Positions 26,128-43,969 of a stretch of 64,000 bases of DNA are shown here, one piece after another. Positions within the stretch are counted from its first letter, which is position 1. Each line of letters begins with the position of its first letter. The notes under the pieces are model-generated. The model searched no databases. It was given only the letters and a program-made list of their open reading frames with translations, and was not told where the DNA came from. This stretch comes from Alphaproteobacteria bacterium (GTDB lineage: Bacteria > Pseudomonadota > Alphaproteobacteria > SP197): the NCBI GenBank assembly GCA_965228895.1, contig OZ245842.1, positions 4,224,001-4,288,000 on the forward strand, read 5' to 3'. The position numbers and the translations under genes were made by a program.

Positions 26128-27111
26128 TTAGGGGTTCTTGGCCACCTCGATCCACGCCTGCCAGCGATCGCTGTTGTCGGCCATCCATTGATCGAGGAAA
26201 ACGTCGATGTCCGTGCCGTCAGAGACCGCCTTTTCCATTTGGATTTGGTCATCCGCATTCATGTCGATGTTCTGGAGAATGCGGTATGCCGTGGGCCACT
26301 GGTCGGGCGTTCCCGGCCAGGCGGTGTTCCATATTCTGGCAGCCGACCAGTCGCAGTCATAGGTCGCATCCGGATTGACGCCGCCCGAGGGGTCCTCGTT
26401 GCAGCCATCCCAGTATTCGGGAAGGCCAACCTCGGCCAGCGGGTAGTCGGCCAGGATGCCGTGCGGCGACCAGAACTGGATGAGCAATGGTTCGCCGCGT
26501 TCGTGAGCCGACTTGATCTCGGCAACCAACGCGCCCTCGCTTCCCGCCGGTTGGGATACTAAGGGAAGACCAAGCGCCTCGATGCGCCACTCGTTGGTCA
26601 CGCCCCACTCGATCGGATAGTCGAGCAAGCGTCCGTTCGGAAAGGTCTCGGCGGTCGCGAGCGATTGAGCGCATTCGTGCAGGACCGTGTAGTCCGTGTC
26701 GAGATCCGGACAGGCTTCCAACGCCTTGTCGTTGGCGTACCAAGTCTCGATACCCGAATAGCCGATCTCGCCGGCATCCAGCACCTGACCGCTCTCAAAG
26801 AGCTCCATCCAGCCTTCGCCGATATTGGACGACCACAGACCCAAGGCCATGTGAATGTCACCGTCGGCCACACCCTGGACTTGCGGATAGTAGCCTGCCG
26901 AAATGTACTCGACTTTGTATCCCGCCGCCTCGAGCACCCGGCCAAGTACATGGGCATTGAAGTACTGTCCGGCCGCACCTTGAACCGCAATCTTGATGGG
27001 ATCCTCGCTTTCGGGAACCTCGGCCACCACAGCGGTCCCTGTTCCACCAGCGTACAGTCCGGCTGCAACGGCCGCCGACATAGCCCACTGCTTAATCTCC
27101 AGCGCCTTCAT
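26128..27111 (-). CDS. Betaine/TMAO-type ABC substrate-binding protein (ProX/TmoX-like)
   Basis: Signal peptide, ESEDPIKI, AGSEGAL, FWSPH, TYDCDW, GGGAGG RBS. Confidence 0.88.
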   Translation of the reverse strand: MKALEIKQWAMSAAVAAGLYAGGTGTAVVAEVPESEDPIKIAVQGAAGQYFNAHVLGRVLEAAGYKVEYISAGYYPQVQGVADGDIHMALGLWSSNIGEGWMELFESGQVLDAGEIGYSGIETWYANDKALEACPDLDTDYTVLHECAQSLATAETFPNGRLLDYPIEWGVTNEWRIEALGLPLVSQPAGSEGALVAEIKSAHERGEPLLIQFWSPHGILADYPLAEVGLPEYWDGCNEDPSGGVNPDATYDCDWSAARIWNTAWPGTPDQWPTAYRILQNIDMNADDQIQMEKAVSDGTDIDVFLDQWMADNSDRWQAWIEVAKNP

Positions 27112-27534
27112 TCGGTCACCCTCCCATTGTTGTGGCGTCATCAGAAGTGTGACTCATCCTAGTGATCGTGATTTGTCGCTCAAAATGAGAAACAGACATG
27201 CTCATTCATGCGCCTGCCTCATGGTTGATATGCTGAGTGGGTTGCGGTTGGGTCTGACCGTCAGGCCTCAAGTGAACCAACGAAGGCATCGTCGCGCCGG
27301 CAGTGACCTCGCCCATCAAACCGCGCCAGGCCCGACGCCGCAGATCCAGGCTGAGCATTATGGTTAGCGCGACAGAGGACCGCTTTGCCCCACGAAGCAA
27401 TGGCAATACGAGAGTGTGTGGCTAGTGCCAAACCCTTCCTTTGCCCAGCCGTTTCGCCGTCGGTGTCGAGAGAGACGGACACAGCCATCTCTTCTTTTCT
27501 CAGCGCCTACCTTTGGTCCTGAACCTCAAAGCGC

Positions 27535-27562
27535 GAGGGTCATAATCTGCATTATGGAAAGT
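27535..27562 (+). other. dif-like XerC/XerD recombination site, copy 3
   Basis: GAGGGTCATAA-TCTGCA-TTATGGAAAGT, with the same spacer and orientation as copies 1 and 2. Confidence 0.65.
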
Positions 27563-27578
27563 GGGCGGATAAGGAGAA

Positions 27579-27746
27579 TGGCGGTGCGGGCAGTCTGCTG
27601 CGAACCCGTCTCTGCCGAAATTTCCCTGTTAACAGGGAAATTACAGGGAAATTTTGCAGATACTGGCGGAATCTGAGTTTTTCACCGCAGTTCCTGCCAT
27701 ATTTTCAGTAACTTAGATGAAAATTCGCTACGCATCCGAACAGGGA
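27579..27746. repeat. Conserved dif-adjacent element, copy 3 (interrupted by IS110; resumes at 29165-29227)
   Basis: Palindrome at 27621-27640. CAGGGAA boxes at 27633, 27644 and 27741, then 29179 and 29221 after the IS. Confidence 0.85.
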
Positions 27747-27763
27747 ATATATGGCCTGCTCCC

Positions 27764-28037
27764 GGGCTGGAAGAGGGAATTTCGGGAACGGCATCAGGGA
27801 AGTCTGCTCGAATATATCCGGCTTTGATATGCGGCGTGGTACCCGCCGCTGCCACGATGGAAATGCGCACATCCGGTGCCTTTAAAATTTACGCGGCCTT
27901 GGTGGCCGTTCGCTGTTCCAGGTTGGCCGGATGCCGATCGACTGTGATGCCATCCTGTCTGGTCCCACTTCGCAGATCAGGTGAGCTCTCTGGCCTCCTT
28001 GTCCCTGTTTATTCGCCTTTGCCTTAATGCCTGACGA
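27764..28037 (-). ncRNA. Putative seekRNA/bridge RNA region of the IS1111 element
   Basis: Non-coding region 3' of the transposase, where IS1111 guide RNAs lie. It contains AACAGGGA (minus strand, 28002-28009), identical to the flanking target. Boundaries are unknown. Confidence 0.5.
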
Positions 28038-29087
28038 TCACGCCGATGCTGCTGTCCTCTCGGTCCTGGCAACGGCGAACTCGGTGTAGTGGTCGCCGGC
28101 CGTCAGCACCGCCCAGGCGATGCGCACCAGCTTGTTGGCGAGCGCCACGATGGCGACGTTGCGGTGCCGTCGCTCGAGCACCCCGTTCACCCAAAGGCCC
28201 AGTCGTGTTCGTTTGCCCTCAAGCGAACGCATCGCCGCCCGCGCGCCGTGAATGAACAAGCGTCGCAAGTAGGCATTGCCGTGCTTGGTGATGCCGAGCA
28301 GCTTAGGCTTGCCGCCGGTTGTCACCTGCCGCGGCACCAGGCCCATCCAGGCCGCCAGATCGCGCCCGGACTCGAAAGCCTCCCCTTTGCCGATCGCCGC
28401 CACCAGCGCCGTTGCCGTCAGTGGGCCGATCCCCGGGATCTCGACCAGCCGCCGCGTTGCTTCGTCCTGGCGCGCCAGCATGACGAACTCTGCATCGAGG
28501 TCGGCAACCCGGTCGTCAAGGACCCGCCACTCACCTCGAAGCTCCTCGATCAGCGTCCGGATGCGTTCGCTCAGGCCCACGCTCTCGTCAGCCAGGATCT
28601 CCGGTAACGCCCGCACCAAGTGATACTTGCCCTTCGGCACCATGATGCCGCGCTCCAGCAGAATGCCCCGGATCTGATTGATCAGCGCCGTACGCTGCTG
28701 TACGACCCGCTCGCGCACCCGGTGCAGGGTCTGCAGGTCGAGCTGACCCTGGCTCTTCACTGTCACAAACCTCATCGTCGGACGTAACGCCGCCTCGGCA
28801 ATCGCCTCCGCGTCCCGATCGTCGTTCTTCTGCGACTTCACGAACGGCTTCACATATTGCGGTGCGATCAGCCGCACGTCGTAATCCAGGTCCAGCAGCT
28901 GCCGGCCCACGTAGTGCGCCCCGCAACACGACTCCATCGCTACCGCACATACCGGCAGGGTTGAAAGGACCGGCACCAGACCCGAACGCTTCACACGCCG
29001 TGACATCACCACCTGTCCTTGTTCGTCAAGACCAGCAAGACTGCAAACGCTCTTGCCCAAATCAACGCCCACAATAACAATGCTCAT
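28038..29087 (-). CDS. IS110 family DEDD transposase/recombinase
   Basis: VGVDLGK, AMESC, KNDDRDAEAI, IPGIGP, GLVPRQVTTGGK, GAGGAG RBS. Confidence 0.95.
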   Translation of the reverse strand: MSIVIVGVDLGKSVCSLAGLDEQGQVVMSRRVKRSGLVPVLSTLPVCAVAMESCCGAHYVGRQLLDLDYDVRLIAPQYVKPFVKSQKNDDRDAEAIAEAALRPTMRFVTVKSQGQLDLQTLHRVRERVVQQRTALINQIRGILLERGIMVPKGKYHLVRALPEILADESVGLSERIRTLIEELRGEWRVLDDRVADLDAEFVMLARQDEATRRLVEIPGIGPLTATALVAAIGKGEAFESGRDLAAWMGLVPRQVTTGGKPKLLGITKHGNAYLRRLFIHGARAAMRSLEGKRTRLGLWVNGVLERRHRNVAIVALANKLVRIAWAVLTAGDHYTEFAVARTERTAASA

Positions 29088-29297
29088 CGGTCTGCTCCTC
29101 TCGCTTTGGATCACTCACAAATCCAGAGTACCCCACCAAGGGGTGGGAGCAGGCCATCCCATAAATATTTAGACCGAACAGGGAAATGTTTCCGTGGATC
29201 AGAGAATCGTCGCACGCGCTCAGGGAACGCACCCTTGGCGGGAGCCGGACTGATCTGAACTGTTCTCCTTTCCGTTTTTGAACGAAAGAAGATCGAG

Positions 29298-29560
29298 ATG
29301 ACGGACGATACCGGGCCGCGGGCTCGCGTTCTGGCGGGCGCATCACGAGACGTTCTAGCGTAGTGACCTGAATCAGCGGGAGTATTGCGTGGCTCACGGC
29401 CTGTCGCAGAAGGCGTTCGGGAACTGGCGCGCGAAGTTCAAGGCCGAGCCTCAGGCGCCGACGCACAAGCTGTTGTACCGGCGGGGCGGCGTAAGTCACA
29501 CCAGTCAAATGACTTATCTCTCATTGGCGCTGTCTGCGGTCCCTATCGTCCCGTATGACC
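29298..29560 (+). pseudogene. IS66 TnpA-like accessory gene remnant
   Basis: FWRAHHETF*RSDLNQREYCVAHGLSQKAFGNWRAKFK, with an in-frame TAG at 29356. Confidence 0.65.
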
Positions 29561-29670
29561 TGACAGTTTCACCTGATCTTCTCGCATCAGCGCAGGACTG
29601 GCGGTACCGGGTCAAGAACCGCCTTTACGGGATCGCGAGATCGATCGCCTCTAATCGACCAATATCTCTC

Positions 29671-29701
29671 TTGAACCTCTAGTAACTGTAGAGTTCATGC
29701 T
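29671..29701 (+). promoter_or_regulatory. MerR-type promoter/operator
   Basis: TTGAAC, 19-bp spacer CTCTAGTAACTGTAGAGTT, then CATGCT. Confidence 0.7.
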
Positions 29702-30200
29702 AGAGGAATTGATAGACGAAGGTTGGCGTTGTGCTACCGGTTGACCATGTCATGAGCGATGGTGGTGAACAGAAAGTGCGGCATGAACCGACGACTCGGA
29801 CAGTTGTGCCTCCCGTCACGGTATCGCTGCAATCGGTGGTAACAGGGCAAAAACGTTCGGCCTCCCCATGGCCGCTTGTTCCATCTCATTGAAGTCATCT
29901 GAGGTGACTGTCGACATGTATCTGCATTTGGCGACCTCGCATGATGAACTCACTCTCGTTTCAGGATACACGGCATGACGTGTACAGCCCGAGTGGAACG
30001 CAGGAGTTGAAAAAACCTGTCAAGAATTGGAGTTGTCCGAACAGTAATCATAGCAGTCTGCTGCATTGTGACCGCACCCATGATGACCTTCGCACCTTGA
30101 TCCCCCTGTACTCATCGGCCGGCTCGGCTATGTACATTTTCCGCACCGGTAGAATTCAAAGCACTTCTATCTACCCCAATTGGAAGATGCAGTCGGCGTG

Positions 30201-42828: not shown

Positions 42829-43097
42829 ATGGGTAAAGCCAATTTCAGTGAGGACTTCAAACGGGACGCGGTGGCGCAGATCACCGAGCGCGGCTATCCT
42901 GTTGCGGAGGTTTCGCAGCGTCTTGGGGTGAGCCAGCATTCGCTCTACGCCTGGAAGCGGAAGTACGCGAGGGCATCTTCGGGAGAGGCCGGGAAGGATG
43001 CCGAGATCAGGCGTCTGAAGCGCGAGCTCGCCCGCGTGACCGAGGAGCGCGACATTCTAAAAAAGCCACCGCGTATTTCGCCAGGGATGCAAAGTGA
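42829..43097 (+). CDS. IS3 OrfA (its normal C-terminus is out of frame after the A6G site)
   Basis: FSEDFKRDAV, HTH, EERDILKK. The expected ATAYFARDAK* tail lies in another frame. Confidence 0.75.
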
Positions 43098-43969
43098 GAT
43101 TCGCGTTCATCGCCGGGCATCGCCCTGTGTTCTCGGTACGGGCGATGTGTCGCTGCCTGCGCCTTCATCCGAGCGGCTTCTATGCGTGGCTCAAGCACCC
43201 GCTGAGCAAGCGGGCACGCGAAGATGCCCGCCAGACCGCACTCATCCGGAAGGCCTGGAAGGAGAGCGGCAGGATCTACGGCTATCGCAAGCTTCATGAT
43301 GATCTGCTGGACCAGGGCGAGACGTGCTGCCCGAACCGTGTGGCCCGTCTGGCCAGGTTGGCAGGCATCAAGGCCCAGATCGGTTACATGCGCCGGCCCG
43401 GCACCTATGGCGGCAAGCCATCAGTGGTGGTCGACAATACGCTGGATAGGCAGTTCGATGTGGACGCGCCCGACGGGGTCTGGGTCACCGACATCACCTA
43501 TATCAGGACGCTCGAAGGCTTCGCCTATCTGGCCGTGGTGATCGATCTGTACTCCCGCCGTGTGGTCGGCTGGTCGATGCAGAGCCGCCAGACGACCGAT
43601 GTTGTCCTGCAGGCTTTGCTCATGGCGGTGTGGCGCCGGAAGCCAAAGCACAAGGTGCTCGTCCACTCCGACCAGGGCTCGCAGTTCACCAGCATGGACT
43701 GGGCGGCGTTCATCAAGGCTCACAACCTCGAGCATTCGATGAGCAGGCGCGGGAACTGCCATGACAACGCCGTGGCCGAGAGCTTCTTCAACCTGCTGAA
43801 GCGCGAGCGGATAAGACGCCGGACCTACAAGACCCGCGCCGAGGCAAGGCAGGATGTGTTCGACTACATCGAGATGTTCTACAATCCCAAGCGCAAACAC
43901 GTGAGAAACGGGATGCTGTCGCCCGTCCAGTTCGAACGCCAGCAGAAAACCAAGACCGAAGGCGTCTAG
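43094..43969 (+). CDS. IS3 OrfB DDE transposase
   Basis: WVTDITY, HSDQGSQF, DNAVAESFF. Confidence 0.92.
   Translation: MRFAFIAGHRPVFSVRAMCRCLRLHPSGFYAWLKHPLSKRAREDARQTALIRKAWKESGRIYGYRKLHDDLLDQGETCCPNRVARLARLAGIKAQIGYMRRPGTYGGKPSVVVDNTLDRQFDVDAPDGVWVTDITYIRTLEGFAYLAVVIDLYSRRVVGWSMQSRQTTDVVLQALLMAVWRRKPKHKVLVHSDQGSQFTSMDWAAFIKAHNLEHSMSRRGNCHDNAVAESFFNLLKRERIRRRTYKTRAEARQDVFDYIEMFYNPKRKHVRNGMLSPVQFERQQKTKTEGV

What the first reader, a model, noticed from the sequence alone, without database searches (positions are those of the whole stretch)
27731..29227. RNA-guided IS1111-type element inserted into the CAGGGAA array, with a matching guide-like segment
Seen: removing 27747-29164 restores GAACAGGGAATATTTAGACC-GAACAGGGAA, recovering the 20-bp box spacing. 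The IS's own downstream non-coding region, read in transposase sense, contains GCGAATA-AACAGGGA (28016-28002). AACAGGGA matches one side of the insertion point and AATA matches the other side on the opposite strand. Known: IS1111 members use a seekRNA/bridge RNA from this region and often target repeated recombination sites such as attC. Inference: this IS specialises on the dif-associated element, paralleling IS1111-attC.
Basis: partly seen in the sequence, partly recalled or inferred. Interest (0 to 1): 0.75.

Follow-up and report, generated by a model that had tools for sequence, protein, structure and literature searches.

The report
RNA-guided IS1111 element targeting repeat boxes

Summary
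The IS is real. Contigs of a close relative hold the empty site. Removing the IS restores a 21-bp box period, not 20, with no target duplication.

Every IS1111 hallmark I could test is met:
- a DEDD transposase of 349 aa;
- perfect 13-bp subterminal inverted repeats;
- terminal extensions of 7 and 3 nt;
- a 290-nt non-coding region downstream of the transposase gene.

A covariance model built only from relatives places the seekRNA/bridge RNA at 27798-27946 (E 8e-12). By homology, the guide for the right flank is GAACAGCGAA (27918-27909). It pairs with 9 of 10 bases of the box TTCCCTGTTC. The left-flank guide (27892-27886) matches only the TT core and 1 of 5 flank bases.

It lies outside the conserved RNA. 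It is not conserved in the closest relative (77% aa). Shuffles give an 8-mer match that good in 3-10% of trials.

Four insertions abut a CAGGGAA box in the same orientation: this copy, a 63-bp remnant elsewhere in the genome, a metagenome relative, and a ~98% copy in another organism. Box specialisation is therefore supported. This is a new member of a known kind.

The parts
27748..29164 (-). Complete IS1111-family insertion sequence, 1417 bp, no target duplication. A 2-bp AA ambiguity (TT in transposase sense) is shared with the flank.
   Evidence: Empty site in X8 contigs and exact boundary at 29164 in the X6 contig. The 7/3 extension rule is shared with 29 relatives. Coordinates verified.
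28038..29087 (-). Transposase gene, 349 aa from the ATG (the ORF is open from GTG at 29114). It carries the GLVPRQVTTG motif.
   Evidence: Pfam PF01548 (1.9e-18) and PF02371 (5.4e-23). The C-terminus matches ISCro4 and IS621 transposase chains. Translation.
29145..29157 (-). Left subterminal inverted repeat ATGGCCTGCTCCC (transposase sense). The 7-nt extension TTATGGG precedes it at 29158-29164.
27751..27763 (-). Right subterminal inverted repeat GGGAGCAGGCCAT. The 3-nt extension ATA follows it at 27748-27750.
27798..27946 (-). seekRNA / bridge RNA homologue: a target-binding loop followed by a donor-binding loop.
   Evidence: Covariance model R1, built from 25 relatives with this window left out, scores 49.3 bits, E 8.1e-12, over the full model length.
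27909..27918 (-). Right-flank (top-strand) target guide, RNA 5'-GAACAGCGAA-3'. It pairs with TTCCCTGTTC at 9 of 10 positions, with a C.C mismatch at +4.
   Evidence: Homologous columns. 476 of 11,056,816 genome positions fit this 10-mer with at most 1 mismatch.
27886..27892 (-). Left-flank (bottom-strand) target guide GUAAA plus core UU. The actual left flank is AATAT|TT, so only 1 of 5 flank bases and 2 of 2 core bases match.
   Evidence: Register taken from relatives and L098. Mismatch count.
27894..27908 (-). Hairpin P2 between the two target guides (CGGCC ACCAA GGCCG).
   Evidence: RNAalifold pairs with compensatory changes. Also flagged as terminator-like.
27927..27933 (-). 5' arm of stem P1 (CAUCCGG). 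It pairs with 27876-27870 (CCGGAUG) and closes the target-binding loop.
   Evidence: A duplex is found in 31 of 31 family members, with differing sequences. There is a U-A to C-G compensatory change against L098.
27857..27861 (-). Donor guide UCCAU, complementary to ATGGG of the left-end extension with one G.U pair.
   Evidence: This position covaries with the left-end extension across relatives.
27811..27817 (-). Donor guide AUAUAUU, equal to the last 5 nt of the right end plus the first 2 nt of the left end.
   Evidence: This match of 6-8 nt is seen in 23 of the 26 elements listed (7 nt here; L049 has 5 and L059 has 4).
27738..27747 (+). Target box GAACAGGGAA that abuts the IS right end.
29165..29185 (+). 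Other half of the target: 11-nt spacer ATATTTAGACC and the next GAACAGGGAA box.
28002..28016 (-). It lies outside the conserved RNA and is probably a chance match.
27775..27801 (+). Three GGGAA box-like motifs inside the IS right end, in the same orientation as the host boxes.
   Evidence: 3 in 47 bp and none elsewhere in the IS. They are kept in the L002 remnant. Only one remains in L098.
27537..27639 (+). Start of the host repeat: dif-like core (27537-27562), a conserved GC-rich stretch, and the palindrome TTCCCTGTTAACAGGGAA (27622-27639).

Best explanation
This is an intact, recently inserted member of the IS1111 group of DEDD-transposase insertion sequences.

Its 290-nt region downstream of the transposase gene encodes a two-loop guide RNA (seekRNA / bridge RNA) at 27798-27946.

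- In the first loop, GAACAGCGAA pairs with the top strand of the right flank, which is the box TTCCCTGTTC including the TT core. GUAAA-UU is the guide for the left flank plus core.
- In the second loop, UCCAU and AUAUAUU match the element's own left-end extension and the right-end/left-end junction.

The inferred cycle follows ISEc11 and IS621. The element excises as a circle. The RNA-loaded transposase pairs the circle junction with a site that carries the box. Strand exchange at the TT core inserts the element in one orientation without a duplication.

Recognition of the right flank fixes the element next to CAGGGAA boxes of a ~300-bp host repeat that begins with a dif-like Xer-type core. 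The left-flank guide is poorly matched at this site.

Shown here: element anatomy, boundaries, RNA homology, guide/flank complementarity, and repeated use of the box.

Inferred: that the RNA is made, that it binds the transposase, and that it directs insertion.
For: Family features:
- Pfam DEDD_Tnp_IS110 and Transposase_20 both hit.
- 13-bp perfect subterminal repeats, 7/3 extensions, a 77-nt upstream and a 290-nt downstream non-coding region. These match the features stated in the introduction and results of Siddiquee 2024.

Boundaries:
- The empty site and the exact boundary are seen in other organisms' contigs.

RNA homology:
- Model R1, built without the window, finds 27798-27946 at 49.3 bits. 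The only other match in 64 kb scores 3.3 bits.
- Stem P1 is present in 31 of 31 members, mean z -2.1.

Guide/flank complementarity across the family:
- In 26 genome elements, each element's own guides scored a mean of 13.8 of 16 against its own flanks. The 586 non-cognate pairs scored 8.4.
- This replicated in 48 metagenome elements: 14.0 against 8.8 for 1918 non-cognate pairs.

This element's guide:
- The right-flank guide fits its flank at 9 of 10 positions. Only 4.3e-5 of genome positions fit that well.
- The closest relative, L098, has GAACAGGGAA, a perfect complement of the box. Its left guide CGAAA-UU matches its own left flank at 7 of 7.

Four insertions abut the box with the same end at the same 3-nt distance:
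- the window copy;
- remnant L002;
- L098;
- X6 record 12.
Against: - The left-flank guide matches only 1 of 5 flank bases in the homologous register. Over the whole 15-nt specification the site has 5 mismatches. At least 5 unoccupied boxes in the genome fit better, with 2 or 3 mismatches.
- The right-flank guide has a mismatch at +4. That position differs among close copies (C here, U in X6, G in L098) although all sit at a box.
- Only 3 nt of L098's right flank are visible, so the box there is inferred from spacing.
- There are no RNA data (one search lists no RNA holder).
- The single-sequence fold is not clearly better than shuffles (z -1.74) and differs from the comparative model.
- The four insertions may not all be independent, because kin share ancestry.
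Confidence: 0.82

Rival explanations
1. The reader's segment GCGAAUAAACAGGGA (28016-28002) is the working target guide, alone or as a second guide in a longer precursor RNA.
For: It is an exact 8-nt complement of +2..+9 of the right flank. The homologous guide has one mismatch. Long seekRNA precursors exist in ISEc11.
Against: - It lies outside the covariance-model match.
- It is not conserved in L098, where the true guide is perfect.
- 28009 T>C shortens it in X2 and X6.
- Chance gives such a match in 3-10% of shuffles.
- Its B-before-T order is the one reported for IS110, not for IS1111.
Confidence: 0.05
2. The site is chosen mainly by protein or DNA structure. A host protein bound to the CAGGGAA array, possibly also to the three GGGAA motifs in the IS right end, recruits the transposase, and the RNA plays a minor part.
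For: - Three GGGAA motifs lie in 47 bp of the right end and nowhere else in the IS. They are kept in the remnant L002.
- The left-flank guide fits poorly.
- Guide position +4 varies without a change of target.
Against: - Guide/flank covariation is strong across 26 + 48 relatives.
- L098 keeps only one of the three motifs and still sits at a box.
- Relatives at ~50% identity lack such motifs.
- No box-binding protein has been identified.
Confidence: 0.08
3. The association with the boxes is inherited, not targeted. The IS rode along with copies of the host repeat, so the four cases go back to one or two events.
For: The window copy and X6 record 12 occupy the same relative box of the repeat. 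All cases come from related sequence families.
Against: - Three different boxes of the repeat are used: the distal box, the palindrome half and the second box.
- In X6 the IS is ~98% identical, while the 87 nt beside it do not align at 85% and the other flank is unrelated.
- A close relative has the empty site.
Confidence: 0.05

Closest known systems
IS1111 family elements with a seekRNA: ISEc11, ISPa11, ISKpn4/ISPst6 (Siddiquee et al. 2024, PMC11187229; sections read)
   Same: - DEDD transposase of 330-350 aa with the GL-P----S/TG motif.
- 11-13-bp subterminal repeats and 7/3 extensions.
- A long downstream non-coding region.
- The top-strand guide lies 5' of the bottom-strand guide, and the two overlap at the insertion point.
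- No duplication, and a single orientation.
   Different: - The transposase is at most ~50% identical to anything in the species-representative genomes searched. The closest relative, at 77%, is on a metagenome contig.
- The target is new: a box of a repeat that begins with a dif-like site.
- No experimental data exist for this element.
IS1111-attC group (ISKpn4, ISPst6, ISPa25), which insert in attC sites of integron cassettes (as described)
   Same: An IS1111 lineage that specialises on a repeated sequence tied to a site-specific recombination site.
   Different: - The target here is not attC.
- It is not the recombination core itself. It is an accessory-like box 76 to ~200 bp from a Xer-type core.
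- No integron is involved. Membership in this group is not claimed.
IS621 bridge RNA (Durrant et al. 2024, PMC11208160, passages; excision study PMC13626964, passages)
   Same: - A two-loop RNA with four guide regions for target and donor and a shared dinucleotide core.
- The donor guides covary with the element's ends.
   Different: - IS621 belongs to the IS110 group. Its RNA is encoded upstream, its subterminal repeats are 2-3 bp, and its core is CT.
- Here the RNA is encoded downstream and the apparent core is TT.
REP-targeting IS110/IS1111 elements (ISPa11, ISPpu9, IS621; listed)
   Same: They insert at a fixed position of a short repeated extragenic sequence.
   Different: The host repeat here is a ~300-bp composite: a dif-like core, a palindrome and phased boxes. 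It is not a REP hairpin.

Membership tests
IS1111 family | DEDD (RuvC-like) transposase with the PF02371 C-terminal domain, 330-350 aa | tested here: met
   PF01548 at 1.9e-18 and PF02371 at 5.4e-23; 349 aa.
IS1111 family | GL-P----S/TG motif in the C-terminal domain | tested here: met
   GLVPRQVTTG read in the translation.
IS1111 family | Subterminal inverted repeats of about 11-13 bp | tested here: met
   13 of 13 bp, at 27751-27763 and 29145-29157. 29 of the 39 related loci examined have the same ATGG.CC-type repeat.
IS1111 family | Asymmetric terminal extensions, 7 nt on the left and 3 nt on the right | tested here: met
   TTATGGG and ATA. The boundaries are fixed independently by the empty site and by the X6 contig.
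IS1111 family | The longer non-coding region lies downstream of the transposase gene | tested here: met
   290 nt downstream against 77 nt upstream.
IS1111 family | No target duplication; one orientation at a specific target | tested here: met
   The empty site equals the flanks joined without loss or gain. The right end abuts the box in all 4 cases.
IS1111 family | seekRNA with a top-strand guide 5' of a bottom-strand guide, both matching the target | tested here: inconclusive
   The order and position are homologous. The top-strand guide fits at 9 of 10. The bottom-strand guide fits only the core plus 1 of 5 flank bases at this site.
IS1111 family | Circular intermediate with a junction promoter; RNA co-purifies with the transposase | not testable with these tools
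   No sigma-70-like promoter is found in the integrated copy. No RNA run is listed.
IS1111-attC group | Inserts at a fixed position in attC sites of integron cassettes | tested here: not met
   The target is GAACAGGGAA within a repeat associated with a dif-like site. I did not search for an integron integrase.
Bridge RNA (IS110-family sense) | A second loop whose two guides match the element's own ends (the donor) | tested here: met
   The donor guides covary with the left-end extension and with the right-end/left-end junction across the 26 elements. Here they are UCCAU and AUAUAUU.

The most novel reading that the evidence does not exclude
The IS is a dedicated parasite of a Xer-type modular system. 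The host repeat has a dif-like core that shares the XerD-arm sequence of the candidate chromosomal dif, followed by phased CAGGGAA boxes. It stands at 12 places in this genome, many of them 10-38 kb apart with one orientation on each side of the origin. The IS carries three phased copies of the same box in its right end. It could therefore extend or mimic the protein-binding array it interrupts, for example to recruit the box-binding factor or to keep the array working. On this reading, guide position +4 is deliberately unpaired.
Probability: 0.12. Interest if true: 0.55.

Novelty: new member of a known kind. Interest (0 to 1): 0.33.

Why it matters
It adds a natural IS1111 guide/target pair with a new target class: accessory-like boxes beside Xer-type sites. 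The case comes with an empty site, a remnant and close variants whose guides differ at defined positions. That makes it a compact test of how much mismatch an IS1111 seekRNA tolerates in each guide. It also shows that a guide should be located by homology to relatives' RNAs, because a raw complementarity search pointed to the wrong segment. The mechanism itself has been known since 2024.

Tried and rejected
Searches that found nothing:
- Rfam found nothing in 27000-30000 at E up to 1.
- Megablast against plasmids found no match.
- There is no second full copy in the genome, by DNA or by protein.
- No transposase closer than 47% was found in the 33 genomes of the family/order.
- No sigma-70-like promoter lies in 27500-29400. 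The one terminator-like hit is hairpin P2 plus the U-rich guide.
- No RNA holder was listed.
- One literature search (IS1111 + dif + Xer) listed no paper on such a target. Word-start matching makes this a weak negative.

Folding attempts:
- RNAalifold on the MAFFT alignment returned only 7 pairs.
- The single-sequence fold had z -1.74, with 10 of 200 shuffles as good. It did not reproduce the comparative model.

Readings I rejected:
- That 27749-27801 belongs to the host repeat rather than to the IS, which the L002 match suggested. The empty site and the inverted repeat rule this out.
- A shifted register for the left guide (TAAATTTT against TAAATATT, 7 of 8), on which the site looked like the best in the genome. 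This is not the homologous register, so I do not rely on it. The same caveat applies to the flexible score, where 8 of 200,000 random sites reached this site's score.

Data left out:
- Of the 53 loci, I examined 39. The other 14 were cut short or were weak matches.
- 10 of those 39 had no clear subterminal repeat and were left out of the flank counts.
- 4 identical duplicates were dropped.
- L098 was left out because its right flank is too short.

Full report
**What is there**

Reading 27300-29700 and listing ORFs shows a 358-codon frame on the minus strand (28038-29114; ATG at 29087 gives 349 aa). It matches Pfam DEDD_Tnp_IS110 (1.9e-18) and Transposase_20 (5.4e-23). Residues 212-333 match the ISCro4 and IS621 transposase chains in the PDB (2.9e-10 and 3.1e-9).

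A perfect 13-bp inverted repeat brackets the gene: ATGGCCTGCTCCC at 27751-27763 and its complement at 29145-29157. No sigma-70-like promoter lies in the integrated copy.

**Boundaries**

Three lines of evidence put the element at 27748-29164 (1417 bp).

1. 29 of the 39 related loci I examined have the same kind of subterminal repeat (ATGG.CC...). In each, 7 nt lie beyond it on the left (TAATGxx; here TTATGGG) and 3 nt on the right (xxA; here ATA). This is the 7/3 rule given in the introduction of Siddiquee et al. 2024.
2. Contigs of a close relative (run X8) hold the empty site. Record 20 follows 27600-27747 with 2 differences and continues ATGTTTAGACCGAACAGG, which is 29165 onward with one difference. 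Record 26 resumes at 29163.
3. A 20.6-kb contig of another organism (X6 record 12) carries a ~98% copy (29 differences and 2 gaps over 27739-29164). It leaves the reference exactly after 29164.

The restored site is GAACAGGGAA, 11 nt, GAACAGGGAA. That is a 21-bp period, as in the uninterrupted paralogue at 381.6 kb and in L098. There is no duplication. Two bases (AA; TT in transposase sense) are shared between the end and the flank, so the cut point is ambiguous by 2 bp.

**The host repeat**

The flanks belong to a ~300-bp non-coding repeat. It has, in order:
- a dif-like core (CATAA-TCTGCA-TTATGGAAA);
- a conserved GC-rich stretch;
- the palindrome TTCCCTGTTAACAGGGAA;
- about 80 nt of less conserved sequence;
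- phased CAGGGAA boxes.

It matches 12 places in this genome, three of them in the window (dif-like cores at 340, 13514 and 27541). It also occurs in 9 of the 32 other genomes of the family.

GC skew puts the terminus near 2.35 Mb. A better dif candidate lies at 2,268,582. It shares the arm TTATGGAAAAT but has a different central hexamer. The repeats are therefore dif-like sites and not the chromosomal dif.

Only four tyrosine-recombinase genes were found, and none is near the arrays.

**Locating the guide RNA by homology**

The element is single-copy here. Its nearest relatives in species-representative genomes are ~50% identical, so I used the family.

In relatives, the region downstream of the transposase gene has a conserved layout:
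- stem P1;
- ACCUG;
- a variable ~10-nt stretch complementary to the top strand of the right flank;
- hairpin P2;
- one nucleotide, then 5 nt equal to the left flank plus 2 nt of core;
- the 3' arm of P1;
- a second loop with NNCAU, complementary to the left-end extension;
- a hairpin;
- a stretch equal to the last 5 nt of the right end plus the first 2-3 nt of the left end.

A covariance model built from 25 relatives, with the window left out, finds 27798-27946 on the minus strand at 49.3 bits, E 8.1e-12, over its full length. The only other match in 64 kb scores 3.3 bits.

P1 is detectable in 31 of 31 family members with unrelated sequences (mean z -2.1). In 18 of the 31, at most 10 of 200 shuffles do as well. 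For the window it is 15 of 200. Between the window and L098, a U-A pair of P1 becomes C-G.

**Do the guides track the flanks?**

Each element's two target-guide stretches were scored against its own flanks.
- In 26 non-identical genome elements the mean was 13.8 of 16. The 586 pairs from different target groups scored 8.4.
- In an independent set of 48 metagenome elements the means were 14.0 and 8.8 (1918 non-cognate pairs).
- Close pairs show single-base covariation. L042 has GCAGACUUA with flank TAAGTCTGC, and L048 has GCGGACUUA with TAAGTCCGC.
- The donor guides likewise follow each element's own ends.

**This element's guides**

The right-flank guide is GAACAGCGAA (27918-27909). It pairs with TTCCCTGTTC at 9 of 10 positions, including the TT core, with a C.C mismatch at +4. 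Only 476 of 11,056,816 genome positions fit that 10-mer with at most 1 mismatch.

The left-flank guide in the homologous register is GUAAA plus UU (27892-27886). The flank is AATAT|TT, so only the core and one flank base match. Over all 15 specified bases the site has 5 mismatches. At least 5 unoccupied boxes fit better, with 2 or 3 mismatches. Examples are GAAAA|TTCCCTGTTC at 399.6 kb and the window's own palindrome box.

A poor left-guide match with a good right-guide match is also seen in natural insertions of relatives (L057, L061, L064). It is therefore not disqualifying, but it remains a real weakness.

An earlier, more flattering result used a shifted register (7 of 8) that is not homologous. 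I set it aside.

**The closest relative**

A 1523-bp metagenome contig (L098, transposase 77% identical) has the same inverted repeat and the same right-end extension (ATA). Its 7-nt left-end extension, TTATGGA, differs from the window's TTATGGG in the last base.
- Its right-flank guide is GAACAGGGAA, the perfect complement of the box.
- Its left guide CGAAA-UU equals its own left flank GGCGAAA|TT at 7 of 7.
- Its left flank contains two TTCCCTGTTC boxes 21 bp apart, plus the CGCGCAGGGAATTCG motif of the host repeat.
- By spacing (88 nt against 86 in the 381.8-kb paralogue), the IS sits just after the second box that follows the palindrome.
- Only TTC of its right flank is on the contig, so that box is inferred.

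**Repeated use of the box**

Besides the window copy and L098, there are two more cases.
- A 63-bp remnant of the right end (89% identical) lies at genome 451,242-451,304. It is joined to the palindrome's AACAGGGAA half, at the same 3-nt distance from the inverted repeat. The same remnant locus is present in X8, which lacks the full IS.
- X6 record 12 has the ~98% copy at the corresponding box of a diverged copy of the repeat. The adjacent 87 nt do not align at 85%, and the other flank is unrelated.

That makes four cases at three different boxes, with one orientation and one register.

In X6 the right-flank guide reads AAACAGUGAA (27912 G>A, 27918 C>U). Position +4 is therefore C, U or G in three close copies that all sit at a box. 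This is unexplained.

GCGAAUAAACAGGGA is at 28016-28002, and AACAGGGA is complementary to +2..+9 of the right flank. Against it as a guide:
- it lies 56 nt 5' of the model match;
- it aligns to a gapped, unconserved stretch in L098;
- its first base is changed in X2 and X6;
- its order (bottom-type AAUA before top-type AACAGGGA) is the one reported for IS110;
- shuffles reach an 8-mer match in 204 of 2000 trials, or 64 of 2000 under a restricted search.

It is most likely a chance match in a purine-rich stretch.

**Mechanism, and what is inferred**

I infer the cycle by analogy with ISEc11 and IS621. Rare read-through transcription yields transposase and RNA. The element excises as a circle. 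The last bases of the right end and the first bases of the left end then form a TATTAT-like -10 element. The RNA's donor loop holds the junction and its target loop holds a box-bearing site. Exchange at TT inserts the element. None of these steps was observed here, and no RNA run was listed.

**Comparison and novelty**

Every structural feature that defines the IS1111 family is met. The seekRNA criterion is met for one guide and only weakly for the other. The element is not a member of the IS1111-attC group, because its target is different. The kind of system was described in 2024, so this is a new member with a new target. One literature search found no report of such a target (a weak negative).

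**Verdict**

The element is ordinary in kind. It is useful as a natural case of guide mismatch tolerance. The host repeat may deserve its own study.

Noticed in passing
window 340, 13514, 27541; genome 345-562 kb and 4224-4252 kb: A ~300-bp repeat begins with a dif-like core that shares the arm TTATGGAAAAT with the candidate chromosomal dif at 2,268,582, but has central TCTGCA instead of TATATA. It stands at 12 places, many 10-38 kb apart. All copies left of the origin point one way and all copies right of it point the other way. Blocks of metabolic genes lie between them. In G005, five copies lie ~12 kb apart on one contig. Only 4 tyrosine-recombinase genes were found, none nearby. It looks like a Xer-type modular array.
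   Followed up: partly
window 27775-27801: Three GGGAA motifs lie 9 and 13 bp apart inside the IS right end, in the same orientation as the host boxes. There are none elsewhere in the IS (about 0.03 expected in 47 bp). They are kept in the L002 remnant. Only one remains in L098, and relatives at ~50% identity have none.
   Followed up: partly
window 27927-27934 and 27732-27738: The 5' arm of stem P1 contains GCAUCCG. This is identical to the 7 nt that precede the target box on the plus strand at this site only; paralogous boxes have other bases there. It may be chance.
   Followed up: no
window 27912 and 27918 (guide positions), runs X6 and L098: The guide base that faces +4 of the box is C here, U in a ~98% copy and G in the 77% relative. 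All three elements sit at a CAGGGAA box.
   Followed up: partly
L042:22-111, L046:2301-2442, L049:1278-1414, L071:1771-1907: In Paraburkholderia/Cupriavidus relatives the target GGCCGGATA|TA is the 3' end of another seekRNA-like sequence. The model matches it directly upstream of the IS left end. These elements therefore insert into guide-RNA genes, or their remnants, of kin.
   Followed up: no
window 27884-27908: Hairpin P2 followed by the U-rich left guide was scored as an intrinsic-terminator-like site. If it terminates transcription it would cut the RNA between its two target guides.
   Followed up: no
window 43094-43966: An ORF with rve/HTH_21 integrase-core domains (IS3-type transposase) lies beyond a block of copper-handling genes: PCuAC, CtaG, a P-type ATPase, MerR and SCO1.
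   Followed up: no
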